A program made the translations under genes and the position numbers. Source: an uncultured Gammaproteobacteria bacterium (GTDB taxonomy: Bacteria; Patescibacteriota; Patescibacteriia; JAHIZJ01). From it: a stretch of DNA of 64,000 bases. Position 1 is the first letter of the stretch; each line of letters begins with the position of its first letter. The stretch lies in NCBI GenBank assembly GCA_964371245.1, contig CAYJKP010000001.1, positions 315,042-379,041 on the forward strand, given 5' to 3'. The notes beneath the pieces are model-generated. The model saw only the letters and a list, made by a program, of their open reading frames with translations. It made no database searches and was not told the origin of the DNA. Of the stretch, positions 5,857-55,118 are shown piece after piece.

Positions 5857-6114
5857 TCAGGCTGGCGGCGTGACGGCGGTGAATAGGTAGGAGGGGTACC
5901 AGCGTCCGTTCAAGCCAGCCAGTCTGACGATCTGGAAAGTCAGCGGCATGCAGCAGCAATCGTGTGACGAAGGGCAGCCTGGCCAGTGTTCGTCGTCCGT
6001 GTCGGTATCGACCTCGGTCACCCGGAATCGCGCATCAGGCGGAGCGCTTAAGAGATCTTGCACCTCGGCCTGGCTTTCATCAGCCAATCTGACTAGTTGT
6101 CCGACTTCCAGCAT
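5857..6114 (-). CDS. hypothetical small acidic protein (85 aa), high-GC
   Basis: GGAGG RBS 9 nt upstream of ATG at 6114 (complement); terminator hairpin downstream; inner start of ORF-track 5857..6159. Confidence 0.5.
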   Translation of the reverse strand: MLEVGQLVRLADESQAEVQDLLSAPPDARFRVTEVDTDTDDEHWPGCPSSHDCCCMPLTFQIVRLAGLNGRWYPSYLFTAVTPPA

Positions 6115-6261
6115 GTTTCCAAACCTCCGTGGGGTAAAGGCTAGGGAAAGGGCGAACAATTAGAAACCGTATGATACTATCATACACTTTATTAAACACT
6201 AGATAAAGCCCAATTATCCACAATATTTTTTGGCTTTTTTTAGCCAAACTTGGTAAATAAG

Positions 6262-6294
6262 AAAAAATCCGCCCAGGCTGTCGGGCCAAGGCGG
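6262..6294 (-). terminator. terminator of lipoprotein gene (CCGCC...GGCGG stem, T-run on minus strand)
   Basis: GC hairpin followed on the minus strand by ATTTTTTC. Confidence 0.5.
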
Positions 6295-6311
6295 TTGGTC
6301 GTTGTTCAGAC

Positions 6312-7676
6312 TCACGGAGCAATGATATGTGTGGCTCCGTCCCAGAAAGCCAGCTTCAGGTGGCCGTCTCCCCAGTACTGGAGGCAGTTATTGCCAGGCA
6401 GCCAGAGCGGCGATCCGGCGTAGGTATCCGGCAGGCGGCGGCGGTCCCACAGTCCGACGGTACCGAGGTAGAGCCCACGCTGGTCGCCAGACTCAGCAAA
6501 CGCGTATCTGGTCCGGTCGGGCGAGTAAGCGACAGAAGTCAGATTCGCCGTCGCTACCACTTTTCCGCCGGTTCCGGAGAGCGGATCCACCCAGTAAATG
6601 CCGTAGAAGTCGGCCCAGAGGACCGCGTCAGGCGCTACCCAGCAGAGCTGCAGCGACGCATTCTGCAGGGTGCTAATGCGCATGTAAACGGTGTGAACAC
6701 CGCTCCCGTCGACGCGCATGACGCGGATGATGGCCTGGGTTCCGTACGAATGGTTCACGAATGCGATCAGCGAATCGCCCGGCGAAAACGTCGGGTTGTG
6801 GTCGTAGACGAAGCCCTGCGTCTGGTAGATCCTCCGCACGACGTTCGAGGGCGCGTCATAGAGGTAGATTCCGTCGACATAGGCGCCAAAGGCAAGCCGG
6901 TCGCCGGAATTCGACCAGACATAGTCGTCGCTGGCGTGCGGATTCGGAATCTCCGTCCTGATGCTGCCGTCCCGGTTCGCGATCACGATGCTGTTGTTCG
7001 CTGACGTGTAGGCGACGTACTGGCCGTTGGGCGACACCCGGTACAAGCCCAGGTTGCTCAAGCCGGAAGCCAGCACGCTCCACTCGATTCCGTCGGCTCT
7101 GATGAGGAACAGCTTGTCGCCGCGGACCTGGGTGAGCATGATGTCCGGGCAGGGCTCGAACGTGGCCGAGACCGTGGTCGTGTCCTCGCCGGACAAGGCA
7201 ACAGTCTCAAAATGCGGATAGTAGCCGGGCCGGCGCAGATACACCTCGCACTTGTCGTCGAAGCCGAGGGGAACGTCGGGAATGATCGCCGGCGTCATGA
7301 CGGACAGGAGCGAGTCGTTCAGCGTGATGTACGCCTCGGGCGGGTTTGACAGCAAACGCAGGACGGCCGGCCGGTGTTCAGAGAAGCTGTGGTACACGGC
7401 GGGATTAACCGAGGCGCTGACCACGACCGTCTCGGCGTGCGCGTAGTAGCCGTGGATCGTGAAGGTGACGACATGGTCGCCATAGTCGACGCCGGTGAGC
7501 GCCGCGTCCGTCACCAGGCCGGTGTCAGTGCCGTCGAGCCAGATGGCCGCGCCTGGCGGAAAGGAGCGGCAGTCGATGGTACCGTGCTTCTCGGGTTCGG
7601 TTCCGTTCTGGCTGCAGCCGGCAAACGTGAGAACGAGCGCGGCGCAGATGGTAAGGATAGACAAGGTCGGTCGCAT
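6312..7676 (-). CDS. lipoprotein with PEGA-like domain and TolB-like (PD40/WD40-like) beta-propeller repeats; high-GC (about 65%)
   Basis: signal peptide with lipobox LTFAGC; PEGA-like segment; repeated ...YVAYTS...DGS...WSNSGDRLAF... propeller-like blocks; AAAGGAG RBS. Confidence 0.7.
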   Translation of the reverse strand: MRPTLSILTICAALVLTFAGCSQNGTEPEKHGTIDCRSFPPGAAIWLDGTDTGLVTDAALTGVDYGDHVVTFTIHGYYAHAETVVVSASVNPAVYHSFSEHRPAVLRLLSNPPEAYITLNDSLLSVMTPAIIPDVPLGFDDKCEVYLRRPGYYPHFETVALSGEDTTTVSATFEPCPDIMLTQVRGDKLFLIRADGIEWSVLASGLSNLGLYRVSPNGQYVAYTSANNSIVIANRDGSIRTEIPNPHASDDYVWSNSGDRLAFGAYVDGIYLYDAPSNVVRRIYQTQGFVYDHNPTFSPGDSLIAFVNHSYGTQAIIRVMRVDGSGVHTVYMRISTLQNASLQLCWVAPDAVLWADFYGIYWVDPLSGTGGKVVATANLTSVAYSPDRTRYAFAESGDQRGLYLGTVGLWDRRRLPDTYAGSPLWLPGNNCLQYWGDGHLKLAFWDGATHIIAP

Positions 7677-20164: not shown

Positions 20165-20193
20165 TTGACAGATAAAAAAGGCTATAGTACAAT
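20165..20193 (+). promoter_or_regulatory. consensus sigma70 promoter TTGACA-17-TACAAT upstream of infA
   Basis: perfect -35 with 17-nt spacer. Confidence 0.55.
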
Positions 20194-20306
20194 GCTTTTG
20201 GGTAAATAAATATTACCAGATGTCAAGATTTTGTCTCGAACAGCGGTAGAATCAAAGAAATTCTCTGTCGGGCTATCTTGACGAGAATTTTTCGTTTTCG
20301 CAATCC

Positions 20307-20558
20307 ATGGAGAAACGAAAGCCGTATACACCATCACGACCCCGCGTTAAACCGGGCTTTGTCGAAGCCAGCGGTGTCGTCGAGGAATTATTGCCCAACG
20401 CCACCTTTCGCGTTACCTTAGACAATGGTCACGCGGTCTTGGCTCATCTCTCCGGGCGCATGCGCATGAATCGCATCAAGATTCTTCCTGGCGACCGGGT
20501 GAGCCTGGAAATGACCCCGTATGATTTAACGAAAGGCAGAATAACATACCGACAATAA
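20307..20558 (+). CDS. infA: translation initiation factor IF-1
   Basis: S1-like IF-1 sequence [42 protein letters not shown]. Confidence 0.9.
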
Positions 20559-21098: not shown

Positions 21099-21560
21099 AT
21101 GGCAGAACAACAACCAGCGAAAGCGGAAGAAAAAAATGAACCAGCCGTCGAGGCTGAAAAAACCGATACCAAGGCGAAGCCGGCGTATCGCAAGAAAAAA
21201 AAGACGCGAAAATTCGTTACCCGCGGGATTGCTCATATTTCCGCGACCTACAATAACACGATCGTCGCAATCAGCGATCCTGAGGGGAATGTGCTGGGCT
21301 GGTCTTCGGCCGGTCAAAACGGATTTAAGGGTCCGAAGAAAGCGACGCCGTATGCGGCCGGTATCATTGTCCGATCGCTGATGGACAAACTGCGGGACTA
21401 CGGCTTGCGCGAAGTCGACGTAAAGGTAAAGGGCGTCGGTTCTGGACGCGAGGCGGCCATCCGCGGTCTCAACGCTCAGGGTTTAAACATATTATCAATC
21501 AAAGACATAACGCCGGTACCGCATAACGGTCCTCGGCCGCGCAAGGTGCGCCGAGTTTAA
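21099..21560 (+). CDS. rpsK: 30S ribosomal protein S11 (Lys-rich N-terminal extension)
   Basis: GIAHISATYNNTIVAISDPEGNVLGWSSAG... S11 core. Confidence 0.9.
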   Translation: MAEQQPAKAEEKNEPAVEAEKTDTKAKPAYRKKKKTRKFVTRGIAHISATYNNTIVAISDPEGNVLGWSSAGQNGFKGPKKATPYAAGIIVRSLMDKLRDYGLREVDVKVKGVGSGREAAIRGLNAQGLNILSIKDITPVPHNGPRPRKVRRV

Positions 21561-21577
21561 GGCGAAGGATATTTATT

Positions 21578-22207
21578 ATGGCTAGAGGCATTGATCATAA
21601 ATGCAAGCAGTGTCGCCGAGAGGGTGAAAAACTTTTTCTGAAAGGCGAGAAATGTTTCAGCGGCAAATGCCCGATCGTGAAGCGGAATTATCCGCCGGGA
21701 CTCCACGGCGTGAAGGGGCGCTCGCGGCAATCAAATTTTGGTATGCAGCTTCGCGAAAAGCAAAAGGCGAAACGCCTCTATCGCTTGAGCGAACGGCAAT
21801 TCTTTAATTATTTCCAAAAAGCCACAAAGCAGCAGGGCGAAACAGTCGAGAATTTCTTGCGCCTGCTCGAACTGCGGCTTGATAATGTCATCTACCGGTT
21901 GGGTATCGGCGCCTCGCGCGACCAGGCTCGACAAATCGTCGGACACGGTTTTGTGTTAGTCAACGGCCGCGGGGTCAATATTCCGTCATATAAAGTGAAA
22001 ACCGGGGATGTGATTACCATCAAGGAAACGAAGCAAAAACGACCGGCCTTCCAGGAAGCGCTGAAGAAACTCGAAAAACATGAAACCCCCTCCTGGCTGA
22101 CGTTCGATAAGTCCGCCGTCAAAGCGACGGTCACGGCCGTGCCAACCATGCCTGAACTGAAACAAAATTTTCAACCCCAACTGATCATCGAGTTTTATTC
22201 CCGATAA
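21578..22207 (+). CDS. rpsD: 30S ribosomal protein S4
   Basis: MARGIDHKCKQCRREG zinc-ribbon N-terminus and S4 domain. Confidence 0.9.
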   Translation: MARGIDHKCKQCRREGEKLFLKGEKCFSGKCPIVKRNYPPGLHGVKGRSRQSNFGMQLREKQKAKRLYRLSERQFFNYFQKATKQQGETVENFLRLLELRLDNVIYRLGIGASRDQARQIVGHGFVLVNGRGVNIPSYKVKTGDVITIKETKQKRPAFQEALKKLEKHETPSWLTFDKSAVKATVTAVPTMPELKQNFQPQLIIEFYSR

Positions 22208-22228: not shown

Positions 22229-23029
22229 ATGGAAAAGATACCTTTACCGAAAAAATTAGGAATCACTCCGGTCGCCGACCATCAAGCAACATTCACGATT
22301 GAGCCTTGCTATCCCGGATACGGTACCACGCTCGGCAACGCCTTGCGCCGGGTGCTCCTATCTTCGTTGGAAGGCGGAGCCATCACCGCCGTCAAGATAA
22401 AAGGGGTAAATCATGAATTCTCCACGCTGCCGAATGTGAAAGAAGACGTGGTCGAAATTATTTTGAATCTCAAAGCGATTCGTTTACAAATGCACTCCGA
22501 TGAGCCTCAAACCGTGACCATCAAGGCCAAGGGTGAGAAAAAGGTCACCGGCAAGGATATCAAATGCCCGGCGGGCATTGAAGTATTTACCACTGATCAA
22601 GTCATCGCCACGTTGACGGATAAAAGCGCTGAATTTGAGGTTGAGCTCCGGGTTGAAAAAGGTCGCGGCTATATTCCCGTTGAAAGTCGCGAAAAAGAAA
22701 AGAATGAAATCGGCATGATCGCCATCGATGCGGTCTACACGCCGATCCGGAACGTCAACTTTGAAGTGGATAGTGTTCGGGTCGGTCAGATGACAAATTT
22801 TGATAAGCTCGTCCTTGATATTACCACCGACGGCACGATTTCACCGGTGGAAGCCTTTACGCAAGCAACCCAAATTCTCGAAGATCATTTCGAATTCATC
22901 CTTGGCGCGTCCAAAGAAGAGCAGGCCACCGAGGAACCGGCGGAGAAAGAGAAAGAGAAGGAAGAAAAAGCTGCCGAGCCAAAGAAGAAACGCGGACGTC
23001 CGAAAAAAACTGAAACGAAAGAGGAATAA
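22229..23029 (+). CDS. rpoA: DNA-directed RNA polymerase alpha subunit N-terminal domain only, with C-terminal acidic/Lys tail and AT-hook (KKRGRPKK); no alpha-CTD
   Basis: alpha NTD conserved blocks; protein ends at 266 aa after KEEQATEEPAEKEKEKEEKAAEPKKKRGRPKKTETKEE; rpsD-rpoA-rplQ context. Confidence 0.85.
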   Translation: MEKIPLPKKLGITPVADHQATFTIEPCYPGYGTTLGNALRRVLLSSLEGGAITAVKIKGVNHEFSTLPNVKEDVVEIILNLKAIRLQMHSDEPQTVTIKAKGEKKVTGKDIKCPAGIEVFTTDQVIATLTDKSAEFEVELRVEKGRGYIPVESREKEKNEIGMIAIDAVYTPIRNVNFEVDSVRVGQMTNFDKLVLDITTDGTISPVEAFTQATQILEDHFEFILGASKEEQATEEPAEKEKEKEEKAAEPKKKRGRPKKTETKEE

Positions 23030-23044
23030 TCACGTTTATCTGTT

Positions 23045-23509
23045 ATGCGCCATCGAAGTAAGAAAAAAACACTCGATCGTCCCACGTCGCAACGCCGTTT
23101 GCTCAGACGCAATTTAGCGGTGAGCCTGATCATGTCAGAGCATGTCCAGACCACAGTGGCCAAGGCGAAATGGCTGCGTCCGTTTGTCGAGCGGCTCGTC
23201 ACCCTGTCGCGGAAGCAAACCCTGGCCGCACGACGTCACGCCCTGGATTTGCTGACCGATCGGGCGGCGGTGAATACACTCATCCATGAGCTTGCCCCGC
23301 GCTATGCGAAGCGCCCCGGCGGCTATACGCGCATCGTGAAAACAGGCCGGCGCTCTGGCGATGGCGCTCAGATGGCAGTGATCGAATTTGTTGATCGTCC
23401 GGCCGCGCCAACGAAGAAGGGGAAGGGCAAAGACAAGGAAGAAAAATCGAAAGAAGCGACCGGTGATAAGAAAGAACATAAAGGGAAAGAGCATGCGGAG
23501 AAAAAATAA
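23045..23509 (+). CDS. rplQ: 50S ribosomal protein L17 (Lys-rich C-terminal extension)
   Basis: MRHRSKKKTLDRPTSQRRLLRRNL... L17 N-terminus. Confidence 0.9.
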   Translation: MRHRSKKKTLDRPTSQRRLLRRNLAVSLIMSEHVQTTVAKAKWLRPFVERLVTLSRKQTLAARRHALDLLTDRAAVNTLIHELAPRYAKRPGGYTRIVKTGRRSGDGAQMAVIEFVDRPAAPTKKGKGKDKEEKSKEATGDKKEHKGKEHAEKK

Positions 23510-23867
23510 GCATACCTTTAAAACACTCGAAACGCATACGCTTGACGCCACCGGACAATCGTTCGGTCGTTTAGCGACTCAAATCGCCCGGCTGTTGCAA
23601 GGTAAGCATCGCCCCGAGTATTCCCCGGAAGCCGACCCGATCATCATCGTGAACGTAACGCACGCCGAGGCGATGAAGATAACCGGGAAAAAACCGGAAC
23701 AAAAGATTTATTACCGCCACACCGGCTATCCGGGACACCTGAAAGGCGTTTCACTAGCCCATTTTCTAAAAGCCAAACCCAGCGTCATTATTTATAAAGC
23801 GGTTGAAAATATGCTTCCGAAAAACAGGCTCCGCAGCCGACGACTCAATCGATTAAAATTTATTTAA
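23493..23867 (+). CDS. rplM: 50S ribosomal protein L13
   Basis: KTLETHTLDATGQSFGRLATQIARLLQGKHRPEYSPE... L13; inner start at 23493, overlapping the rplQ end. Confidence 0.85.
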   Translation: MRRKNKHTFKTLETHTLDATGQSFGRLATQIARLLQGKHRPEYSPEADPIIIVNVTHAEAMKITGKKPEQKIYYRHTGYPGHLKGVSLAHFLKAKPSVIIYKAVENMLPKNRLRSRRLNRLKFI

Positions 23868-23870
23868 CGT

Positions 23871-24407
23871 ATGCCACGTACTGCCAAAACCCCCAGCGAT
23901 AAGACAGCAAAGGACGAAAAGCCGAAGAAACGCGGCCGTCCTCGGAAAACGGTGATCAAGAAAGAAGTGCCGGCCGTCCAGCAGCCGCCAGTCGTTGAAA
24001 AACCAAAGGTGAAGCGCTTTACCTACCTCTTCGCCGTCGGACGACGGAAAGAGGCAGTCGCCCGAGTCCGGTATTATCGCAAGGGTGAAGGCAAGTTTAC
24101 AGTGAATGCCAAGCCAGTCGAACAGTATTTTTCGACCTTAGAAACCCAGAATATTGTCAAAATGCCGATTCAGGCTGTCAGTGCCACGCTCGATGGGGAC
24201 GTCTCGATCAAGGTCCAGGGCGGCGGCAAGCGGGGACAAGCTGATGCGAGTCGACTGGGCATTGCTCGAATATTGATTTTGCTTGATAAGAAGAACCGGC
24301 CGACCCTGAAACGGCTGGGCTATTTGACGCGCGACCCACGGGTGAAAGAACGGAAGAAATATGGCTTGAAACGAGCCCGGCGCGCACCGCAGTGGCAGAA
24401 GCGCTAA
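23871..24407 (+). CDS. rpsI: 30S ribosomal protein S9 with Lys-rich N-terminal extension containing an AT-hook-like KKRGRPRK
   Basis: S9 C-terminus LGYLTRDPRVKERKKYGLKRARRAPQWQKR. Confidence 0.9.
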   Translation: MPRTAKTPSDKTAKDEKPKKRGRPRKTVIKKEVPAVQQPPVVEKPKVKRFTYLFAVGRRKEAVARVRYYRKGEGKFTVNAKPVEQYFSTLETQNIVKMPIQAVSATLDGDVSIKVQGGGKRGQADASRLGIARILILLDKKNRPTLKRLGYLTRDPRVKERKKYGLKRARRAPQWQKR

Positions 24408-24410
24408 GAT

Positions 24411-24501
24411 AATTCAAAATTCAAAATTCAGAAGTAAAAATGATGGTACGCCGCCGCTTGTGCGGCGGGAAACATTCATTATACATTTTGCATTTTGAAT
24501 T
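24411..24501 (+). repeat. AATTCAAAATT-arm hairpin element, copy C (arms AATTCAAAATTCAAAATTCAGAA / CATTTTGCATTTTGAATT; core CCGCCGC-ttgt-GCGGCGG)
   Basis: between rpsI stop and flippase start; same architecture as copies A, B and D. Confidence 0.65.
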
Positions 24502-25982
24502 ATTACTTTACGATGACGCCAAGCTATCACCCAGATCGAATAGCCCGGAATACCTCGTACCTGACGATTGCCCTGACCGCCCAAAAGGTACTCTCCTTCG
24601 TATATTTTATTTACATTTCGCGGTCGATCGGTAGTGAAGAAATCGGCCGCTATCTCTTTGCGCTGTCGTTAACGACCATTGTCGGCGTTTTTATTGACAT
24701 TGGATTAAATCCGGTACTGACGCGTGAAATTGCGAAGGATCCGCAAAAAACCCACCTCTATTTAAATACCACTTTTTCACTGAAACTTCTTCTGGCTGTG
24801 CTCGCGTACGGCGCCGTTTTTTTGTTTATCAATCTGCCATTTTTAGGCTATCCGGCTGAGACGAAACACCTAGTCTATCTCTCAGGCCTTGTCATGATAT
24901 TTGATACCTTTGTTTTGAGCTTTTATTCAATCTTTCGCGGCTATCAAGTTCTGAAATACGAGTCGCTGGGCGTCATTCTCAATAAAATCGTGGTGATGGG
25001 CTTGGGTGTTTTATTTATTTTGATGCACAAGGGTACACTCTTTTTGGTGCTGGCAATTCTTTTCGGGAGCATGTTTAACATTGTGTACACCGCGACTTTA
25101 TTGATTCGCAAGGTGCAGTGGCGCCCGCGATTTTACCTTGATAAAAATGTTTTGAAAGCGCTGCTGCGGATTGCGCTACCGTTCGCCGTGGCCAGCATAT
25201 TTACAGTCATTTACGGTTCGATTGATTCAGTCCTGCTCAACATGCTCAGCGGTGCCCGCGGCAACAGTTTTGTTGGCTGGTATGGCACTGCCTATAAACT
25301 CACATACTCATTTCAGTTCATTCCAATCGCGGTTGGGGCGGCTGTCTTTCCGGCGATGAGTTCGTATTTTATTTCGTCAAAGGCCTTATTGGCGCGGACC
25401 TTTGAACGGGCATCGTATTATCTGCTCGTGATCGTCATGCCGATCGTGTTCGGCGTTTTCGCGGTTGCCGAAAAACTCATTCTCCGGCTCTGGGGCAATG
25501 CCTTCGGTACCTCAATCCATCCGTTACAAATCTTGATTTTTAGCTTGATCTTCGTTTTTCTCACCTTTCCGATCGGGGCATTGTTAAACGCCAGTAACCG
25601 CCAAACGCGCAATACGATCAATATCGGCATTGCCATGGTCGTTAATATTATTTTAAATTTAATCCTGATACCGAAATATACGTTTATCGGCACGAGTATT
25701 TCCTCGCTGGTCTCGACCTTCATTCTTTTTGCCCTCGGTTTGTCGGTCGTCCGTCAAACTATCACCGTGAACTGGCGGTATCTCGTCACCATTGTGTTCA
25801 AAACGCTGGTCTCAGCCCTGATTATGGTTGGCATTCTATTGGCCTTGAAGGAAAGAGTATCGTTTATCATATTAATTCCGCTGGGCGTCGTGATATATTT
25901 TCTGGCACTTTTCCTGTTTCGGGGCTTTGGCCAAAACGAGTATAAACGGATTTTTCACGTCGTCCTGCGGCGACTTTCATGA
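24495..25982 (+). CDS. MOP-superfamily flippase (polysaccharide biosynthesis protein, Wzx/MurJ-like)
   Basis: about 14 TM helices; operon with two glycosyltransferases. Confidence 0.6.
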   Translation: MNYYFTMTPSYHPDRIARNTSYLTIALTAQKVLSFVYFIYISRSIGSEEIGRYLFALSLTTIVGVFIDIGLNPVLTREIAKDPQKTHLYLNTTFSLKLLLAVLAYGAVFLFINLPFLGYPAETKHLVYLSGLVMIFDTFVLSFYSIFRGYQVLKYESLGVILNKIVVMGLGVLFILMHKGTLFLVLAILFGSMFNIVYTATLLIRKVQWRPRFYLDKNVLKALLRIALPFAVASIFTVIYGSIDSVLLNMLSGARGNSFVGWYGTAYKLTYSFQFIPIAVGAAVFPAMSSYFISSKALLARTFERASYYLLVIVMPIVFGVFAVAEKLILRLWGNAFGTSIHPLQILIFSLIFVFLTFPIGALLNASNRQTRNTINIGIAMVVNIILNLILIPKYTFIGTSISSLVSTFILFALGLSVVRQTITVNWRYLVTIVFKTLVSALIMVGILLALKERVSFIILIPLGVVIYFLALFLFRGFGQNEYKRIFHVVLRRLS

Positions 25983-27124
25983 AGCGCTCTCTTTTTATTA
26001 CACTCGATTATTCGCCGCGCGTGGGCGGGGTAGCGAGGGTATATACGAACCTTATCCGCCGATTGCCGTCCGAACGCGTCCTGGTCCTGGCTCCGCCGGA
26101 AAAGCAAGCCCATCTTTTTGATAGCCGCGAACCATATCGTATCATCCGGCGAAATTTTTATACCCGTCTGCCTTTGCTGTGGCCGAAATGGCTACCCTTG
26201 CTGGTAACCCTTTTTCGGTTGGTCCGGCGCGAGCACATCGAATGCATCCATGTTGGCCAGGTTCTGCCGATCGGCACGGCCGTATTTATGCTTCAAAAAT
26301 TTATCCACCTTCCCTATATTGTGTATTCGCATGGCTTGGATGTTACCTCGCCACAGGCCTGGCCGCGCAAGAAACGACTGATCCAGAAGATACTCAATCG
26401 CGCCGTCGCGATTGTCGCCAACAGTGAGTTTACAAAACGGGAGATTATTCGACTCGGCGTACCAGCTGACAAGATTCTGGTTTTGACGCCCGCCTGCAGC
26501 TTGCTCGGTACGGCGGCTGGTCAGGGCTTGATCGAAACAGTGCGCCGGCGTCATAATCTAGACGGACGAGAGGTGCTTCTGACCGTCGGACGGCTCGAAG
26601 AACGAAAAGGCCAAGACAGCGTTATCCGAGCGCTGGGTGAATTGCTTCGTCGCCACCCGCAACTGGTCTATGTGATCGTCGGCACTGGGCCGGACGGGCA
26701 ACGGCTGCGCCAGTTGGCTGAAGAATATCAGGTGGCCGAGCGGGTGATTTTTGCCGGCCGGATACCGGACGAAGAACTGCCGGCCTACTATCAAAATTGC
26801 GATGTTTTTTGCATGCCGGCACGCGAACTCTCAAATCGGGATGTCGAAGGATTTGGTATAGTGTATTTAGAAGCAAACGCCTATGGCAAACCGGTTATCG
26901 GCGGAAAGAGCGGCGGCGTTGCCGAAGCCATAGTACATGGTCAAACCGGGCTCCTCGTCTCGTCCGGTGATCAGTCAGAGCTGGTTCAGGCAATTGACCG
27001 ACTGCTGACTGACCATGCGTTCGCCGCTCGGCTCGGGCAGACCGGCCGAACGCGAGTTGAAAAAGAGTTTAACTGGGAGACGCGCGCCCGCGCCTTGCGA
27101 CAATTGATTGAACGACTGTCATGA
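25979..27124 (+). CDS. glycosyltransferase family 4 (GT-B, group 1)
   Basis: EGFGIVYLEANAYGKPVIGG...GQTGLLV E(x7)E motif region; ATGA overlap. Confidence 0.8.
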   Translation: MKRSLFITLDYSPRVGGVARVYTNLIRRLPSERVLVLAPPEKQAHLFDSREPYRIIRRNFYTRLPLLWPKWLPLLVTLFRLVRREHIECIHVGQVLPIGTAVFMLQKFIHLPYIVYSHGLDVTSPQAWPRKKRLIQKILNRAVAIVANSEFTKREIIRLGVPADKILVLTPACSLLGTAAGQGLIETVRRRHNLDGREVLLTVGRLEERKGQDSVIRALGELLRRHPQLVYVIVGTGPDGQRLRQLAEEYQVAERVIFAGRIPDEELPAYYQNCDVFCMPARELSNRDVEGFGIVYLEANAYGKPVIGGKSGGVAEAIVHGQTGLLVSSGDQSELVQAIDRLLTDHAFAARLGQTGRTRVEKEFNWETRARALRQLIERLS

Positions 27125-29833: not shown

Positions 29834-30436
29834 ATGCTTATAGATATTGTGATTCTACCTCCCAAAAAAATAAGTAAATTGATTGGTGATAAAATCAAAA
29901 AGGAGATTGGCAATCACCCAAATTATTTTGTGGTAGATAATGTCAAGCTTTTCTCTCATTTGAGTCTGTGGCATATGAAAATATCAAAGAAAGGAATAAA
30001 TATTATTGTTAAGAAGTTAAAACAGATAACCAAGGGTCAAAAACAGATTAAAATCAGCTCTTCAGGATTTCGCGCCCTAAAGAAATATCCTGGCTGTGTA
30101 GAATTTGAAGTAAAGAATAATAAAGATTTGACTCATTTACAACACAATATTTTCCAAAATATTTACTCTTATAAATCAGGCGTAATGCCGGGATTCGCGT
30201 CTTTTTTGAAGATCGTATATTCTGGTAAAAAACTACAAGAAATAAAAAATTACGGCAGGTCGATAGGATTTGCACCTCATTTTACAGTGGGATGGTTGAA
30301 AAATATTAAAGATATTCCAGTGGTTGTAAAGAAAATGAGAGAGATGAAATTTAGTTTTTTTGCAAAAGAAATATATATTTGCGAAATTGACAAATGGTGG
30401 CAAGTCAAAAAGATAATAAATAAAATTAGCTTTTAG
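29834..30436 (+). CDS. 2H phosphoesterase family protein (LigT/ThpR-like), very low GC (about 28%)
   Basis: two H-x-S/T-x motifs (FSHLSLW and PHFTVGW) at the expected spacing. Confidence 0.65.
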   Translation: MLIDIVILPPKKISKLIGDKIKKEIGNHPNYFVVDNVKLFSHLSLWHMKISKKGINIIVKKLKQITKGQKQIKISSSGFRALKKYPGCVEFEVKNNKDLTHLQHNIFQNIYSYKSGVMPGFASFLKIVYSGKKLQEIKNYGRSIGFAPHFTVGWLKNIKDIPVVVKKMREMKFSFFAKEIYICEIDKWWQVKKIINKISF

Positions 30437-41266: not shown

Positions 41267-41539
41267 TTAAAGAATGGTGTCCTTGGCTTGTTTGGCCACT
41301 CGGAATTTCACTACAGTTTTCGCCGGGATCTGAATCGTCTCGCCAGTCGCTGGGTTGCGACCCTGGCGGGCGGCGCGGTTTTTCTTGACCAATTTGCCAA
41401 GACCGGGCAGGGTGAATTCACCCTTGGCTTTTGTTTCCGCGTAGGCCGTTTCCACGAGGATGTTCATAAAGTCAGCGACCTCCTTTTTGGAGCGTCCTGA
41501 TTTGTCGGCCAAGACCGCGAACAGTTGAGACTTTGTCAT
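41267..41539 (-). CDS. hup: DNA-binding protein HU
   Basis: MTKSQLFAVLADKSGRSKKEVADFMNILVETAYAE...RNPATGETIQIPAKTVVKFRVAKQ HU/IHF fold. Confidence 0.9.
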   Translation of the reverse strand: MTKSQLFAVLADKSGRSKKEVADFMNILVETAYAETKAKGEFTLPGLGKLVKKNRAARQGRNPATGETIQIPAKTVVKFRVAKQAKDTIL

Positions 41540-41795
41540 TGATTTTGGCATACGTCTCTTTTAGTTATTAACATTTACCCAATAATTATAACGAAAATAC
41601 ACAAAAAAACAACAAAATTGTGTTAATTATTAATGTTTTTCAATGATTTTATCTGATGATATATGAATAATATGCTATTAATTGTTTAATATTAGCCAAA
41701 TAACATTTAAAAAATAAATCATACAATTAATGCCAATAAATACGTATTAATACCGTTATGCTATAATTTTGCCGTATGAATATTCGCAAACGCAT

Positions 41796-42098
41796 ATGAA
41801 AAAAATCATCGCCATTACGTTAGTTATTCTTTCTGTTGGCTTCACTGTTGGTTGCAGGGAAAGCAAGACCGAAAATACAAATCAAGCATCAGTACCGACA
41901 AATGCCACGGATAGCGGCAACGCGAACAGCAATCGCGCTCAAGAAGGAAATAACGGAAACGTAAACGCATCGTTCAACCGCAATCTCCAGGAAATTGAGA
42001 TGTTAACAAACAGCGCCGATGCGGCAGGTAAAAATGTTGATACCGAATATGATGGATTCGAAAATCTCGACGCGAGCGACGATAACATTGAGATATAA
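41796..42098 (+). CDS. small lipoprotein (Asn/acidic-rich)
   Basis: MKKIIAITLVILSVGFTVGC lipobox signal peptide. Confidence 0.55.
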   Translation: MKKIIAITLVILSVGFTVGCRESKTENTNQASVPTNATDSGNANSNRAQEGNNGNVNASFNRNLQEIEMLTNSADAAGKNVDTEYDGFENLDASDDNIEI

Positions 42099-49379: not shown

Positions 49380-50609
49380 ATGAGTAGAGTAACCACTATT
49401 TGGAAAAAAGAACTTCGGGACGGCATCCGCGACCGGCGGACGCTCGTGTCAACGATTATTTTACCCATGCTCCTGATGCCGGGCATCATCATCGGGATGG
49501 GGAAGTTGGTTACCTGGCAAATATCCCAGGTTAAGGATCAGCCGGTGACGGTCGGGGTGGTTAACGCTTCGTCCGCGGCTGATTTCGTCTCGCAATTGCG
49601 CGCGACAAAAAATGTCGCTGTCACAGAAATGACCGGTGAAATACAACCTGAAGTGAAGAACAAAAAAGTTGATATAGCCATCGTCTTTCCGGCTTCGTTC
49701 CAAACAGCCATTGAAGCGGCACAGCCGGTTCAGCTTGAGGTCTATCAGAATTCATTGAATACGAAATCAACGACTGCGCTTACTCGGCTCACGACCGTGG
49801 CCGCACAGTACAATCAAACGCTCCTGCAAGCTCGGCTCGCCAAGGAAAGCATTAGCCCGCTTGTGCAAAACGGCGTCAGCCTAAAAACAACCGAGGTGGC
49901 GTCCGATCAGGAAATTGGCGGCTTCGGGCTGAGCTATCTCTTGCCGCTCTTCATTGTCATGTGGGCGGTCGTCGGCGGCCAAACGTCAGCCGTGGACATT
50001 TCAGCCGGTGAAAAAGAGCGAAAAACACTCGAATCGCTCCTGCTCACACCGGTCAGCCGTTTGCAGATCGTTTTTGGCAAATTCCTGGCCGTGGCCACCA
50101 TGGCGCTGTCCTCGGAGATCATCGCGCTTGGCAGTATGTATGCTGTTTTTGCGTTTGGCGGTGGCGACTTATTTACCGCCACAGCCAGTCAGTCGTCGGG
50201 CCTGGTGCAAACGTCGGCGGTCGGGGTGAATTTTACGCTCCAGCCGCAGGCCGTTATTCTCATGTTCCTGGTCAGCATCCTGCTGGTGATGCTTTTTTCT
50301 GCGCTTAATCTTTCTGTGGCAATATTCGCGAAAAGCTACAAAGAAGCCCAGAGCTATATTGGCCCGTCGTACCTCATCGTTATCTTGCCGGTGGTGTTAG
50401 TAAACATGTTGCCTGGTTTTCAGGCGAAGCTCGGTTTTTTCGCTATTCCGATCGTGAATGCCGTCTTATTGTTCAAAGAGGTGCTGGTAGGTGTCTATAA
50501 TACCAGTCACATCGTTATGACGATTGGAGTCATGATCGTCAGCGCGCTGATCACGATGTACATTGCCAGCCGGATTTACCGGAAAGAGGGAGTGTTGTTC
50601 AAGGATTAA
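49380..50609 (+). CDS. ABC-2 family permease (NatB-like)
   Basis: N-terminal TM, large extracytoplasmic loop, C-terminal 5 TM. Confidence 0.75.
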   Translation: MSRVTTIWKKELRDGIRDRRTLVSTIILPMLLMPGIIIGMGKLVTWQISQVKDQPVTVGVVNASSAADFVSQLRATKNVAVTEMTGEIQPEVKNKKVDIAIVFPASFQTAIEAAQPVQLEVYQNSLNTKSTTALTRLTTVAAQYNQTLLQARLAKESISPLVQNGVSLKTTEVASDQEIGGFGLSYLLPLFIVMWAVVGGQTSAVDISAGEKERKTLESLLLTPVSRLQIVFGKFLAVATMALSSEIIALGSMYAVFAFGGGDLFTATASQSSGLVQTSAVGVNFTLQPQAVILMFLVSILLVMLFSALNLSVAIFAKSYKEAQSYIGPSYLIVILPVVLVNMLPGFQAKLGFFAIPIVNAVLLFKEVLVGVYNTSHIVMTIGVMIVSALITMYIASRIYRKEGVLFKD

Positions 50610-50613
50610 ATAT

Positions 50614-51273
50614 ATGAGTAATTTTATTGATTACCAATGGCGAAAAGAATATCGAAAATGGCTAATAGGTATTGGCATAGTAGGAGTAATAATAATATTT
50701 TCTAGTGAATTTCTTGTTAATAAATTTTTACCTATCGGGAATATTACTATTAGTGAAAAGATATTAGGTTCAATATATTTTGTAACGGCTACAATAATAT
50801 TTTGGTACACTCGAGAAACATTCGATCTAAAAGTTATTCAACAAAAGGAACTAATCGAAATTAGAAAACAAACAGATTTTCAAATAACTCCATATTTACG
50901 AATACAATGGTCAAATAATAAAGACGAAATATTTCATATCATCAATGATGGCAAAGGGTTGGCTATCAATCTGCGTTTTTTACCATTTTCTCCAACTACA
51001 GAGCTTGTATTAAACATTAAACATCGTCCTGTAATATCTAGTGGTGGTTATACTATTGTTTCAACGGATGAATTATTTAGTAATATTAAACAGCCAAGCA
51101 TCATACAGGATACTAGTATATTAAAGGGACTAATATTGTCATACGTAAAAAATAGTTTTTCAATTGAAGCAACATATAAAGACATAATGAATAATCAGTA
51201 TAATGTCGTTTTCTGTTCGGATCCTACATATAACGATTTGTTTTATATAAATAGTCAAAAGAGGGTGTCATGA
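50614..51273 (+). CDS. hypothetical membrane-anchored protein, very low GC (about 28%)
   Basis: inner ATG immediately after the upstream stop; N-terminal TM helices. Confidence 0.45.
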   Translation: MSNFIDYQWRKEYRKWLIGIGIVGVIIIFSSEFLVNKFLPIGNITISEKILGSIYFVTATIIFWYTRETFDLKVIQQKELIEIRKQTDFQITPYLRIQWSNNKDEIFHIINDGKGLAINLRFLPFSPTTELVLNIKHRPVISSGGYTIVSTDELFSNIKQPSIIQDTSILKGLILSYVKNSFSIEATYKDIMNNQYNVVFCSDPTYNDLFYINSQKRVS

Positions 51274-53877: not shown

Positions 53878-54624
53878 ATGCAAAGATCTGATTACAATTT
53901 TTTTCAACCAATTATATCGTTTCTCGGTCTTGTCATCTCGCTAGTGATTACAGTTTTACCAGTGTTTAATGTTAGTCAGTTAAAACAGGCCTTTCTTGAT
54001 CCAAAATTATCTACCCCAGTATCATTCTTTGCTTTTATTATAGGCATTATTATCATATGGCAGATTATGGAATTTCATTCTTATATTGAAATACGAATTG
54101 GGAAGAAAAAAATGATACATTCTAAGACTGGTGAAGAATATTTTTCCCCAAGAATTGTAATTACCCATAAACAAATAATATGGATATTAATCATTTTATC
54201 CATAATATCCTCATTCACTTTTATGTTTCTAAAAGAAATAAAAAATCCGGCTTTAATTGTTATCTACATACAATCATTTTTATATCTGGTATTTTTCCTT
54301 CTTCTAATTTCAATTTTTGGCCTTTTAATTGCCTGGACTAGAGGAAAATATAAATGGACAGAGGAAAAAGAGAATTTTCCTAATACCATATTTAATACAT
54401 TAGAAAAGTGTAGGCATATTAAGCCAGGTATAGAGATATATGAAAATATTACTGCGAATCCGGAAGAGCTAGAAAGAGAAGGAATCACGGGCGTTTTTGG
54501 AGCAAAAAGAATTAAAGTACGAACTACCGTACAGGAGGATAATATAATTGAGTTCTATGCAAGTGGCGACGGTAAAGAAATATTTAAAATAACAAAAAAA
54601 CATAAAATCGAAGAGGAAAAATAA
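53878..54624 (+). CDS. hypothetical polytopic membrane protein, very low GC (about 28%)
   Basis: hydrophobic ORF. Confidence 0.45.
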   Translation: MQRSDYNFFQPIISFLGLVISLVITVLPVFNVSQLKQAFLDPKLSTPVSFFAFIIGIIIIWQIMEFHSYIEIRIGKKKMIHSKTGEEYFSPRIVITHKQIIWILIILSIISSFTFMFLKEIKNPALIVIYIQSFLYLVFFLLLISIFGLLIAWTRGKYKWTEEKENFPNTIFNTLEKCRHIKPGIEIYENITANPEELEREGITGVFGAKRIKVRTTVQEDNIIEFYASGDGKEIFKITKKHKIEEEK

Positions 54625-54629
54625 TTTGT

Positions 54630-55118
54630 TTGTATATAAAATACCAACTTATTTGCCAAGTAACCCAGATGGAGAGTGATAAAGCTAAAACAATACCCCT
54701 GAAATCAAAGGCCAACCGAGTTTTTGGATACATCATCAATGTCATCATCCACGCCGTCATGCTGTATGTCGCGAATAATCTGTTGAATTGGGGCGCGCAG
54801 TTTATTCTGCCGACCTGGGCAGACGTTCTTGGGGTCGTACGCTTTTCATTTATTTTAAGCATTGTGGCCTACGCGACGTTCATCATCTACGATCGTCGGG
54901 GGTATTATTACTTCCTGCGAACAGCCATGGACGCGGTCAGCATCTACGTTGGGTACCGGCTGGTGACGGTATTTCCTTTTGACTTCTATGGATTTTATCA
55001 TCAAGGCTGGCTGAATGATGTCTTCCCATACGTGTTATGGTTCGGGATTGCCGCGTTAGTAATTTCAATCATTGTCCGAACAGTGAGATTAGTGGCAAAT
55101 AAGAATCTATATTATTAA
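54630..55118 (+). CDS. hypothetical membrane protein (alternative start 54669)
   Basis: hydrophobic ORF. Confidence 0.45.
   Translation: MYIKYQLICQVTQMESDKAKTIPLKSKANRVFGYIINVIIHAVMLYVANNLLNWGAQFILPTWADVLGVVRFSFILSIVAYATFIIYDRRGYYYFLRTAMDAVSIYVGYRLVTVFPFDFYGFYHQGWLNDVFPYVLWFGIAALVISIIVRTVRLVANKNLYY

What the first reader, a model, noticed from the sequence alone, without database searches (positions are those of the whole stretch)
22229..24407. RNA polymerase alpha lacks the alpha-CTD and ends in an AT-hook; ribosomal protein S9 also carries an AT-hook-like N-terminal extension
The rpoA product is only 266 aa. After the conserved N-terminal domain it ends ...KEEQATEEPAEKEKEKEEKAAEPKKKRGRPKKTETKEE. 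The canonical alpha-CTD helix-hairpin-helix domain that binds AT-rich UP elements in the minor groove is absent. It is replaced by an acidic linker and a GRP-core AT-hook, which is itself a minor-groove AT-binder. S9 begins with ...KPKKRGRPRKT, and S11 and L17 have Lys-rich extensions. This suggests a lineage-specific substitution of one AT-DNA-binding device for another. It may relate to the extremely AT-rich promoter regions seen here, for example at 41560-41770.
Basis: partly seen in the sequence, partly recalled or inferred. Interest (0 to 1): 0.6.

Follow-up and report, generated by a model that had tools for sequence, protein, structure and literature searches.

The report
RNA polymerase alpha with AT-hook tail
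This ultra-small (Patescibacteria/CPR) bacterium has an RNA polymerase alpha subunit that lacks the usual DNA- and activator-binding C-terminal domain. It ends instead in a short floppy tail tipped with an AT-hook, which raises the question of how such bacteria recognise and regulate promoters.

Summary
rpoA (22229-23029, +) encodes 266 aa. These form a well-conserved alpha N-terminal domain (PF01193 + PF01000), an acidic linker, and a terminal PKKKRGRPKKTE that reaches Pfam's AT_hook cut-off. There is no alpha-CTD (PF03118) in the gene, in the 64-kb window, or in 23 related loci.

It is not a frameshift:
- rplQ starts 15 nt after the TAA stop.
- The identical protein is on at least 23 independently assembled contigs.
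- All 120 closest homologues are 249-305 aa and lack the CTD.

The loss covers several CPR groups (Kerfeld-, Veblen-, Uhr-, Magasanik- and Buchananbacteria-like, plus Saccharibacteria-labelled MAGs). Parcubacteria-, Nealson-, Andersen- and Gribaldobacteria-labelled genomes keep the CTD.

The AT-hook is conserved in this clade (motif identity 0.79, linker 0.15) but is not the general replacement. Of the 120 tails, 28 carry a hook, 79 carry a Lys patch without GRP at the same place, and 13 are acidic only. Other CPR alphas have no tail.

S9's N-terminal KKRGRPRK is also real (28 of 120 homologues) and is only loosely coupled to the rpoA hook.

DNA binding is inferred, not shown. Predicted promoters in the window show no AT enrichment upstream of -35. 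I found one sentence in the literature on CTD loss in "Parcubacteria" and nothing on the hook.

The parts
22229..23029 (+). rpoA: RNA polymerase alpha subunit, 266 aa, naturally lacking the alpha-CTD
   Evidence: The ORF is listed. Pfam finds PF01193 + PF01000 only. It aligns to B. subtilis alpha (6wvj_A) residues 21-250 at E 1e-62. The identical protein is on at least 23 contigs.
22229..22927 (+). alpha N-terminal domain (aa 1-233): dimerisation and beta/beta' assembly platform
   Evidence: The AF2 model has pLDDT above 90 over most of aa 10-230, with the last helix at 206-233. The invariant NALRRVLLSS motif corresponds to E. coli R44/R45.
22910..22978 (+). acidic, disordered linker (aa 228-250: SKEEQATEEPAEKEKEKEEKAAE)
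   Evidence: pLDDT is below 50 from aa 235. The segment aligns to the acidic interdomain linker of B. subtilis alpha. Mean pairwise identity among hook-bearing homologues is only 0.15.
22982..23020 (+). AT-hook (aa 252-264, KKKRGRPKKTETK; core R255-G256-R257-P258)
   Evidence: PF02178 scores 17.6 bits against a cut-off of 17.4. The consensus P-K-K-K-R-G-R-P-K-K-[T/E/S]-E holds in 28 homologues, with motif identity 0.79.
23045..23509 (+). rplQ (L17), 154 aa, with a Lys-rich C-terminal extension (aa 117-154)
   Evidence: The Pfam L17 domain covers aa 21-116. The ATG lies 15 nt after the rpoA stop, which leaves no room for a CTD.
23496..23867 (+). rplM (L13)
   Evidence: Pfam PF00572 at E 2.6e-34.
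23871..24407 (+). rpsI (S9), 178 aa, with a 56-aa basic N-terminal extension
   Evidence: The Pfam S9 domain covers aa 57-178. Of 120 homologues, 112 have an N-extension longer than 25 aa.
23919..23951 (+). AT-hook-like motif in the S9 N-extension (aa 17-27, KPKKRGRPRKT)
   Evidence: PF02178 scores 16.3 bits, just below the 17.4 cut-off. KKRGRP[K/R]K is present in 28 of 120 S9 homologues.
21099..21560 (+). rpsK (S11) with a 42-aa N-terminal extension ending in KKKKTRK
   Evidence: The Pfam S11 domain covers aa 43-152. Similar extensions occur in CPR loci.
20166..20194 (+). consensus-type promoter candidate for the infA-rpsM-rpsK-rpsD-rpoA-rplQ-rplM-rpsI cluster (TTGACA, 17 nt, TACAAT)
   Evidence: Found by my own scan and read directly. 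It is a consensus match only, and there is no A/T tract upstream of the -35.
   Evidence: TGcTATAAT ends at about 41768. It is included as context and is not shown to be a target of the hook.

Best explanation
The gene encodes a functional RNA polymerase alpha subunit that has lost the alpha-CTD in evolution. It keeps the assembly domain (alpha-NTD) and the acidic interdomain linker.

Shown:
- The CTD is absent, and the absence is lineage-wide.
- The tail is disordered.
- The terminal motif is a canonical, clade-conserved AT-hook.
- Most CTD-less relatives carry a Lys/Arg patch at the same position.

Inferred:
- The terminal basic cluster acts as a minimal flexible tether. With two per RNAP, each on a linker of about 20-25 residues, it would touch DNA upstream of the -35 element.
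- In this clade the RGRP core would insert into the minor groove of A/T-rich stretches. That would partly replace the alpha-CTD/UP-element contact.
- The hook is a clade-specific refinement of a more general electrostatic tail.
- Loss of the CTD also removes the usual docking site for class I activators, which fits organisms with few regulators.
- The S9 N-terminal hook is a separate elaboration of the basic ribosomal-protein extensions typical of CPR. It most likely binds rRNA.
For: CTD absence:
- Pfam finds the NTD only.
- A 60-sequence alpha-CTD HMM finds nothing better than E = 1.3 in the window plus 23 CTD-less CPR loci (285,589 bases, about 286 kb). Nine CPR positive controls score 54-76 bits.
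- rplQ follows the stop after 15 nt.

Not an artefact:
- The identical protein is on at least 23 contigs from independent assemblies.
- All 120 best homologues are 249-305 aa without PF03118.

Functional alpha:
- It matches B. subtilis alpha at E 1e-62, including the linker.
- The assembly motif NALRRVLLSS is invariant.
- The AF2 model of the NTD has pLDDT above 90.

The hook:
- PF02178 reaches its gathering score.
- It lies in a region with pLDDT below 50.
- Motif identity is 0.79 against 0.15 for the linker.
- No such motif occurs in any other real gene within 927 kb of loci or elsewhere in the window.

Basic patch at the same place: 107 of 120 tails have one.

From established knowledge, not tested here:
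- E. coli alpha(1-235) assembles RNAP and supports basal but not UP- or activator-dependent transcription (as summarised in PMC8321222).
- AT-hooks bind the minor groove of AT-rich DNA.
- WhiB7 uses an AT-hook next to sigma region 4 for upstream promoter contacts.
Against: - No binding data exist.
- The hook is dispensable in evolution. A parsimony count on a neighbour-joining tree gives at least 8 gain or loss events. The sister clade has PKKKR[A/V/T]RAKK. Thirteen of 120 tails are acidic only, and five CPR alphas have no tail at all.
- Twenty-nine predicted promoters in the window show no AT enrichment upstream of -35. AT per 5-nt bin is 0.48-0.64, against 0.56 for intergenic DNA. The operon's own promoter has none. 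These promoter calls are only consensus matches, so this is a weak negative.
- A single AT-hook binds DNA weakly (my own knowledge).
- The same motif on ribosomal protein S9 shows that in this lineage it is not reserved for DNA-binding contexts.
- Absence of a separately encoded CTD could be checked in only 64 kb of a genome of roughly 1.2 Mb.
Confidence: 0.45

Rival explanations
1. The tail is a generic charged, disordered appendage. It could give non-specific nucleic-acid affinity, solubility or charge balance, or bind nascent RNA. It would have no promoter-specific role, and RGRP would be one near-neutral variant of a Lys/Arg patch.
For: - Of 120 homologues, 79 have a patch without GRP (for example EPKKKTRKKK).
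- The sister clade mutated G to A/V/T and P to A while keeping the patch.
- Thirteen tails are acidic only, and five CPR alphas are tail-less.
- CPR ribosomal proteins S9, S11 and L17 carry similar Lys-rich extensions.
- There is no AT enrichment upstream of predicted -35 elements.
Against: - Within hook-bearing lineages the 11-residue motif is 79% identical while the adjacent linker is 15% identical.
- G, R and P are invariant in lineages whose NTDs are only 55-60% identical. That is hard to reconcile with neutrality.
- The patch always sits at the very C-terminus, after an acidic spacer.
Confidence: 0.33
2. The hooks on alpha and on S9 are a matched pair. They would serve a shared partner or a physical link between RNAP and the ribosome (for example transcription-translation coupling), or both would bind RNA.
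For: - Both motifs are nearly identical (PKKKRGRPKKT and PKKRGRPRKT) and are encoded 0.9 kb apart in one operon.
- In 22 same-contig pairs, 8 have both and 9 have neither.
- These are the only two proteins with Lys-type hooks in 927 kb.
Against: - Three lineages have the alpha hook with a hook-less S9 (L083, L084, L085). Two have the S9 hook with a hook-less alpha (L081, L082).
- Most both-hook pairs belong to one clade, so the association may be phylogenetic.
- No evidence was found for any partner.
Confidence: 0.1
3. The alpha-CTD still exists but is encoded as a separate gene elsewhere in the genome (a split alpha).
For: Only 64 kb of the genome could be searched. Split genes occur in reduced genomes (my own knowledge).
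Against: - An alpha-CTD HMM finds nothing in the window or in 23 CTD-less CPR loci, while the CPR positive controls score strongly.
- A free CTD without a tether to the NTD would not reproduce the known mechanism.
- CTD-less alphas form about 36 distinct 50%-identity clusters among the best 150 representatives.
Confidence: 0.04
4. Sequencing or assembly error, or a pseudogene: a frameshift or premature stop truncated a normal rpoA.
For: None found.
Against: - rplQ begins 15 nt after the stop, with a canonical L17 N-terminus.
- The identical protein is on at least 23 contigs from different samples.
- All 120 nearest homologues have the same architecture.
- No CTD-like sequence appears in any frame.
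Confidence: 0.01

Closest known systems
Canonical bacterial RNAP alpha subunit (alpha-NTD, linker, alpha-CTD; the CTD binds UP elements and class I activators)
   Same: - Orthologous gene in the conserved rpsM-rpsK-rpsD-rpoA-rplQ context.
- The NTD is 45-57% identical to solved alphas.
- An acidic flexible linker is retained.
- The proposed job of the tail, minor-groove contact with A/T-rich upstream DNA, is the same as that of the CTD.
   Different: - The whole helix-hairpin-helix CTD of about 70-85 residues (PF03118) is missing.
- A 13-residue AT-hook stands in its place.
- There is no surface for activator docking (the 261, 265 and 287 determinants).
Natural alpha-CTD loss in extreme endosymbionts (Hodgkinia, Tremblaya), in Euglena chloroplast rpoA, and a one-line mention for 'Parcubacteria' (PMC8321222)
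   Same: A naturally CTD-less alpha in organisms with reduced genomes. [quoted passage not shown]
   Different: - That paper describes erosion, not a replacement motif.
- The reference it cites for Parcubacteria (PMC4508563) does not mention RNA polymerase in its main text.
- Here the Parcubacteria-labelled loci actually keep the CTD, and other CPR groups lack it.
- No AT-hook or basic tail is reported there.
WhiB7 (Actinobacteria): a sigma-region-4-bound factor with a C-terminal AT-hook that contacts AT-rich DNA upstream of -35
   Same: An AT-hook delivered to upstream promoter DNA by a protein that is stably part of the initiation complex. This is my own knowledge. Related WhiB/AT-hook papers surfaced (PMC6954389, PMC10243135) but were not read.
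   Different: WhiB7 is a regulated accessory factor bound to sigma. Here the hook is part of a core subunit, is present in two copies, and is constitutive.
Myxococcus xanthus CarD: an RNAP-binding domain, an acidic region and four HMGA-type AT-hooks. In other myxobacteria a Lys-rich H1-like tail replaces the hooks
   Same: - The arrangement is the same: an RNAP-associated module, an acidic stretch, then RGRP hooks.
- AT-hook and plain Lys-rich tails are interchanged between relatives in the same way (for alpha). The CarD facts are from my own knowledge.
   Different: CarD is a separate transcription factor with four hooks. It is not homologous to alpha.
Eukaryotic HMGA-type AT-hook (Pfam PF02178)
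   Same: The core R-G-R-P is flanked by Lys/Arg, lies in a disordered region, and reaches the Pfam gathering score.
   Different: There is a single hook per chain, whereas HMGA has three. The host protein is a bacterial RNAP core subunit, and binding is untested.
Archaeal RpoD and eukaryotic Rpb3/AC40 (alpha-NTD homologues)
   Same: These are assembly-platform subunits with the RNA_pol_L and RNA_pol_A_bac folds and no alpha-CTD (Pfam family names).
   Different: The window protein is clearly of bacterial type, with its best PDB matches to Bacillus, Clostridioides and Thermus alpha. The loss is secondary within Bacteria.

Membership tests
Bacterial RNA polymerase alpha subunit (RpoA) | alpha-NTD: RNA_pol_L dimerisation domain with the inserted RNA_pol_A_bac domain | tested here: met
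   PF01193 at E 3.5e-22 and PF01000 at E 2.2e-33. Solved alphas match at E 1e-62. The AF2 NTD model has pLDDT above 90.
Bacterial RNA polymerase alpha subunit (RpoA) | conserved assembly residues (E. coli R44/R45 region, NALRR[I/V]LLSS) | tested here: met
   R40, R41, S45, S46 and L47 are invariant in the 34-sequence alignment A1. They align to E. coli residues 11-236.
Bacterial RNA polymerase alpha subunit (RpoA) | operon context rpsM-rpsK-rpsD-rpoA-rplQ | tested here: met
   The same order occurs in L081-L089.
Bacterial RNA polymerase alpha subunit (RpoA) | alpha-CTD (PF03118, helix-hairpin-helix; UP-element and activator contacts) | tested here: not met
   There is no PF03118 hit. The alpha-CTD HMM gives a best E of 1.3 in the window and related loci, while controls score 54-76 bits. 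The whole genome was not searchable.
AT-hook (Pfam PF02178 / HMGA type) | core R-G-R-P flanked by Lys/Arg | tested here: met
   The motifs are KKKRGRPKK in alpha and KKRGRPRK in S9.
AT-hook (Pfam PF02178 / HMGA type) | reaches the Pfam gathering score (17.4 bits) | tested here: met
   The alpha tail scores 17.6 bits and passes. The S9 N-extension scores 16.3 bits and narrowly fails.
AT-hook (Pfam PF02178 / HMGA type) | lies in an intrinsically disordered segment | tested here: met
   pLDDT is below 50 for aa 235-266.
AT-hook (Pfam PF02178 / HMGA type) | binds the minor groove of A/T-rich DNA | not testable with these tools
   This needs EMSA or footprinting with distamycin competition.
UP-element-type upstream promoter recognition | A/T-tract enrichment at about -40 to -60 of promoters | tested here: inconclusive
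   Twenty-nine consensus-predicted promoters show AT of 0.48-0.64 per 5-nt bin, against 0.56 for intergenic DNA. Seven of 29 have an A4 or T4 tract. No experimental transcription start sites are available and the sample is small.
Ribosomal protein uS9 | Ribosomal_S9 domain with the conserved C-terminal ...RAPQWQKR tail | tested here: met
   PF00380 at E 7.8e-39 over aa 57-178. The N-extension is additional.

The most novel reading that the evidence does not exclude
In a large part of the Candidate Phyla Radiation, RNA polymerase has given up the alpha-CTD. With it goes the classical UP-element and class I activator mechanism. In several lineages the core enzyme instead carries two tethered AT-hooks that read A/T-rich minor grooves upstream of promoters. 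That would be a previously undescribed mode of promoter recognition built into a bacterial core subunit. The same module on ribosomal protein S9 could point to a shared nucleic-acid or coupling function.
Probability: 0.3. Interest if true: 0.8.

Novelty: new variant of a known kind. Interest (0 to 1): 0.6.

Why it matters
The alpha-CTD is textbook equipment of bacterial RNA polymerase. A 2025 survey still calls it "ubiquitously present across all Bacteria" (PMC12531629). It is the target of UP elements and of most class I activators.

A large, environmentally abundant radiation that lacks it must initiate and regulate transcription differently. A conserved AT-hook or Lys patch on a core subunit gives a concrete hypothesis for how, and it can be tested in vitro.

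There are also practical consequences:
- Promoter models and regulon predictions that assume UP elements or CRP-type activation may not transfer to these CPR lineages.
- Public annotations that call late starts for S9 and L17 hide these extensions.

Tried and rejected
1. Frameshift or truncation. Rejected: no CTD-like sequence in any frame, rplQ abuts the stop, and identical copies exist in at least 23 assemblies.

2. UGA-recoding artefact for the tail-less CPR alphas. Rejected: all of them end in TAA followed by rplQ.

3. A CTD elsewhere. Searched with three remembered CTD sequences, then with a 60-sequence HMM over the window plus 23 loci, and nothing was found. The full genome could not be fetched, because the look-up of encoding contigs returns at most 10 kb of flank.

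4. Strict co-evolution of the alpha and S9 hooks. Rejected by the counter-examples L081-L085.

5. UP-like AT enrichment at predicted promoters. No signal, but the promoter calls are weak.

6. Literature. Seven searches found no description of an AT-hook on alpha or in CPR. They found one sentence on CTD loss in 'Parcubacteria', and the source it cites does not discuss RNA polymerase.

7. Organism name. The cluster look-up gave no name. Taxonomy therefore rests on the names of homologues and of loci.

8. Rfam. Only three tRNAs were found in the window, and no rRNA that could place the organism.
Full report
**What is there**

The window carries the gene cluster infA (20307-20558), rpsM, rpsK (21099-21560), rpsD (21578-22207), rpoA (22229-23029), rplQ (23045-23509), rplM (23496-23867) and rpsI (23871-24407), all on the + strand.

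- rpoA encodes 266 aa. Pfam finds only the two families that make up the alpha N-terminal domain, PF01193 and PF01000, over aa 25-221. It finds no PF03118 alpha-CTD.
- Against solved structures, the protein aligns at E 1e-62 to Bacillus subtilis alpha residues 21-250. That span covers the NTD and the acidic interdomain linker. The solved alphas then continue into a CTD that is missing here.
- An AlphaFold2 model built on a 34-sequence alignment is confident for the NTD (mean pLDDT 84, above 90 over most of aa 10-230, last helix 206-233). It is disordered from aa 235 to the end.
- The tail reads SKEEQATEEPAEKEKEKEEKAAE-PKKKRGRPKKTETKEE. Scanned on its own, it reaches Pfam's gathering score for the AT_hook family (17.6 bits against 17.4, aa 252-264).
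- S9 has a 56-aa N-terminal extension ahead of its Pfam domain. The extension contains KPKKRGRPRKT, which scores 16.3 bits, just below the cut-off.
- S11 has a 42-aa N-terminal extension, and L17 a 38-aa Lys-rich C-terminal extension.

**It is not chance and not an artefact**

- In all six frames of the window, the only RGRP motifs in a basic context inside ORFs of at least 80 aa are these two.
- In 927 kb of 86 fetched loci, about 60 of them from other phyla, Lys-type hooks occur only in the alpha tails and S9 N-extensions of CPR loci. The other matches are Arg-rich antisense frames of GC-rich genomes.
- rpoA ends in TAA, and rplQ starts 15 nt later with a canonical L17 N-terminus, so no space is left for a CTD.
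- The identical 266-aa protein is on at least 23 contigs from different samples and assemblers.
- Neither three reference CTD sequences nor a 60-sequence alpha-CTD HMM finds anything in the window or in 23 CTD-less relatives. The best E-value is 1.3 over 286 kb. The same HMM scores 54-76 bits on nine CPR alphas that do have a CTD.

**How wide is the loss?**

- All 120 best homologues, out of 7,995 scored hits in the 5.8-billion-protein collection, are 249-305 aa and lack PF03118. Sources name them Patescibacteria, Kerfeldbacteria, Buchananbacteria or Parcubacteria.
- A scan of one genome per species returned a mixed set. Every complete alpha from a non-CPR locus has a CTD (307-354 aa). One, L015, appears truncated inside its CTD and was left out of the tree.
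- Among CPR loci, those labelled Parcubacteria, Nealsonbacteria, Andersenbacteria and Gribaldobacteria keep the CTD (L002-L004, L007, L008, L019, L024, L025, L051).
- The loci labelled Veblenbacteria, Uhrbacteria and Magasanikbacteria lack it. So do several labelled Saccharibacteria and several unnamed MAGs.
- Five are bare NTDs of 232-236 aa that end in TAA directly before rplQ, so stop-codon recoding does not explain them.
- In the library of 50%-identity representatives, the best 150 matches to the NTD include 88 with a CTD. About 36 are genuine CTD-less clusters, and the rest are fragments or chimeras.

The loss is therefore a property of several large CPR groups. It is not universal in CPR and not peculiar to this genome.

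**What replaces the CTD?**

I classified the tails of the 120 homologues.

| Tail type | Count |
|---|---|
| AT-hook | 28 |
| Lys/Arg patch without GRP, near the C-terminus after an acidic spacer (typically EPKKKTRKKK) | 79 |
| Acidic only | 13 |

- On a neighbour-joining tree of the NTD, the hook needs at least 8 gains or losses by a parsimony count.
- The immediate sister group of the window's clade reads PKKKRARAKK, PKKKRVRAKK or PKKKRTRAKK. The patch is kept and the G-R-P core is destroyed.
- Where the hook is present it is strongly constrained. Its consensus is P-K-K-K-R-G-R-P-K-K-[T/E/S]-E. Mean pairwise identity is 0.79 over 11 residues, against 0.15 for the 25 residues before it. This holds in lineages whose NTDs are only 55-60% identical.
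- The conserved theme is an acidic spacer followed by a terminal basic cluster. The AT-hook is a recurrent, selected variant of that theme.

**The S9 hook**

- Of 120 S9 homologues, 112 have a basic N-terminal extension longer than 25 aa, and 28 contain KKRGRP[K/R]K.
- Basic S9 extensions also occur in CPR genomes that keep the alpha-CTD. They are a general CPR trait.
The 22 pairs split as 8 with both hooks, 3 with the alpha hook only (L083-L085), 2 with the S9 hook only (L081, L082), and 9 with neither.
- The association is real but mostly confined to one clade and is broken in both directions. The two hooks are not an obligate pair.

**AT-rich promoters**

It is the divergent control region of an HU-family gene (PF00216) and a small lipoprotein-like ORF, and it contains a TGcTATAAT.
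- The window as a whole is 50% AT, and its intergenic DNA is 56% AT.
- Twenty-nine consensus-predicted promoters show no AT enrichment in the 45 nt upstream of -35.
- The good consensus promoter ahead of the rpoA cluster (TTGACA, 17 nt, TACAAT at 20166-20194) has no A/T tract upstream.
- Without mapped start sites this is only a weak negative. The proposed link finds no support here.

**Most likely mechanism**

Shown:
- This is a CTD-less but otherwise intact alpha, with its assembly residues invariant.
- It has a disordered tail ending in a canonical AT-hook.

Inferred from established knowledge:
- An alpha truncated after the NTD still assembles RNAP and supports basal transcription. It loses UP-element and class I activator responses (summarised in PMC8321222).
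- AT-hooks bind the minor groove of A/T-rich DNA.
- The two tails emerge on the upstream face of RNAP. With about 20-25 flexible residues each, they could reach DNA just upstream of -35.

I therefore consider it most likely (about 0.45) that the basic tip is a minimal DNA tether and that in this clade it prefers A/T tracts. The main rival (about 0.33) is a generic charged tail without promoter-specific function. That rival is favoured by the many hook-less and tail-less relatives. A role shared with the ribosome or with RNA (about 0.1), a separately encoded CTD (about 0.04) and an artefact (about 0.01) are less likely.

**Comparison with what is known**

- The protein is an RpoA orthologue that fails one defining feature of the family, the CTD.
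- Natural CTD loss has been described for Hodgkinia and Tremblaya and for Euglena plastids. It is asserted in one sentence for "Parcubacteria" (PMC8321222). The paper cited there does not mention RNA polymerase in its main text.
- A 2025 study treats the CTD as "ubiquitously present across all Bacteria" (PMC12531629).
- I found no paper that mentions an AT-hook on alpha or in CPR.
- The closest functional analogues are recalled from my own knowledge, apart from search hits. One is WhiB7, whose AT-hook sits next to sigma region 4. The other is Myxococcus CarD, which has an RNAP-binding module, an acidic stretch and RGRP hooks. In CarD's relatives the hooks are exchanged for Lys-rich tails, which parallels the pattern seen here.

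**Verdict**

This is a new variant of a known kind: a bacterial RNAP alpha in which the CTD is replaced by a short basic tail, here an AT-hook.

Interest is moderate to high (0.6). Loss of a textbook domain across a major radiation, together with a conserved candidate substitute, would surprise transcription specialists and can be tested directly. The function of the tail remains an inference.

Noticed in passing
window 41267-41812: The most AT-rich stretch of the window, up to 85% AT per 100 nt, is the divergent control region of an HU-family DNA-binding protein gene (41267-41551, - strand, PF00216) and a small ORF with a lipoprotein-like signal (MKKIIAITLVILSVGFTVGC...). It holds an extended -10 (TGcTATAAT) ending near 41768.
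   Followed up: partly
window 29834-30436, 50563-51273, 53878-54624, 54630-55118: These AT-rich coding regions (72-80% AT in a 50% GC window) have ORFs with no Pfam match. They may be recently acquired or lineage-specific genes.
   Followed up: partly
L010, L012, L017, L022, L030 (rpoA at about 6001-6705 in most): Some CPR genomes encode a bare alpha-NTD of 232-236 aa with no tail. It ends in TAA directly before rplQ. Several of these MAGs are labelled 'Gammaproteobacteria' in their records, which looks like a mislabel.
   Followed up: partly
P0132, P0143, P0166, P0235 (S9); L087-L089 coordinates 1904-2281 (L17): Public gene calls often start S9 at a downstream Met (125-126 aa, 'MFAV...' or 'MAV...') and L17 at MSEHVQ (125 aa). 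That cuts off the basic extensions, so annotated proteomes under-report these extensions and the S9 hook. L086 shows the full S9 with its hook for the genome of P0132.
   Followed up: partly
window 24495-27124; L081-L086: Downstream of rpsI the synteny is conserved: a Polysacc_synt/MurJ-like flippase and then a GT4 glycosyltransferase follow directly, both in the window and in relatives at 57-73% identity.
   Followed up: no
P0241 (569 aa), P0244 (526 aa), P0290 (664 aa): These representative-library proteins have two alpha-NTD-like stretches, or an NTD starting at about residue 230-250. They could be fusions with the upstream S4 gene, tandem alphas, or gene-calling errors.
   Followed up: no
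literature: PMC8321222 citing PMC4508563: The only published statement I found that 'Parcubacteria' lack the alpha-CTD cites a paper whose main text contains no mention of RNA polymerase, rpoA or sigma. In the present data the loci labelled Parcubacteria keep the CTD.
   Followed up: yes
rpoA tails of homologues (for example P0015, P0055, P0069: EPKKKTRKKK): The commonest hook-less tail motif, PKKK(T/A)RKKK, closely resembles a classical monopartite nuclear-localisation signal (SV40 PKKKRKV, recalled from memory). This is probably coincidental in an episymbiont of prokaryotes, but it stands out.
   Followed up: no
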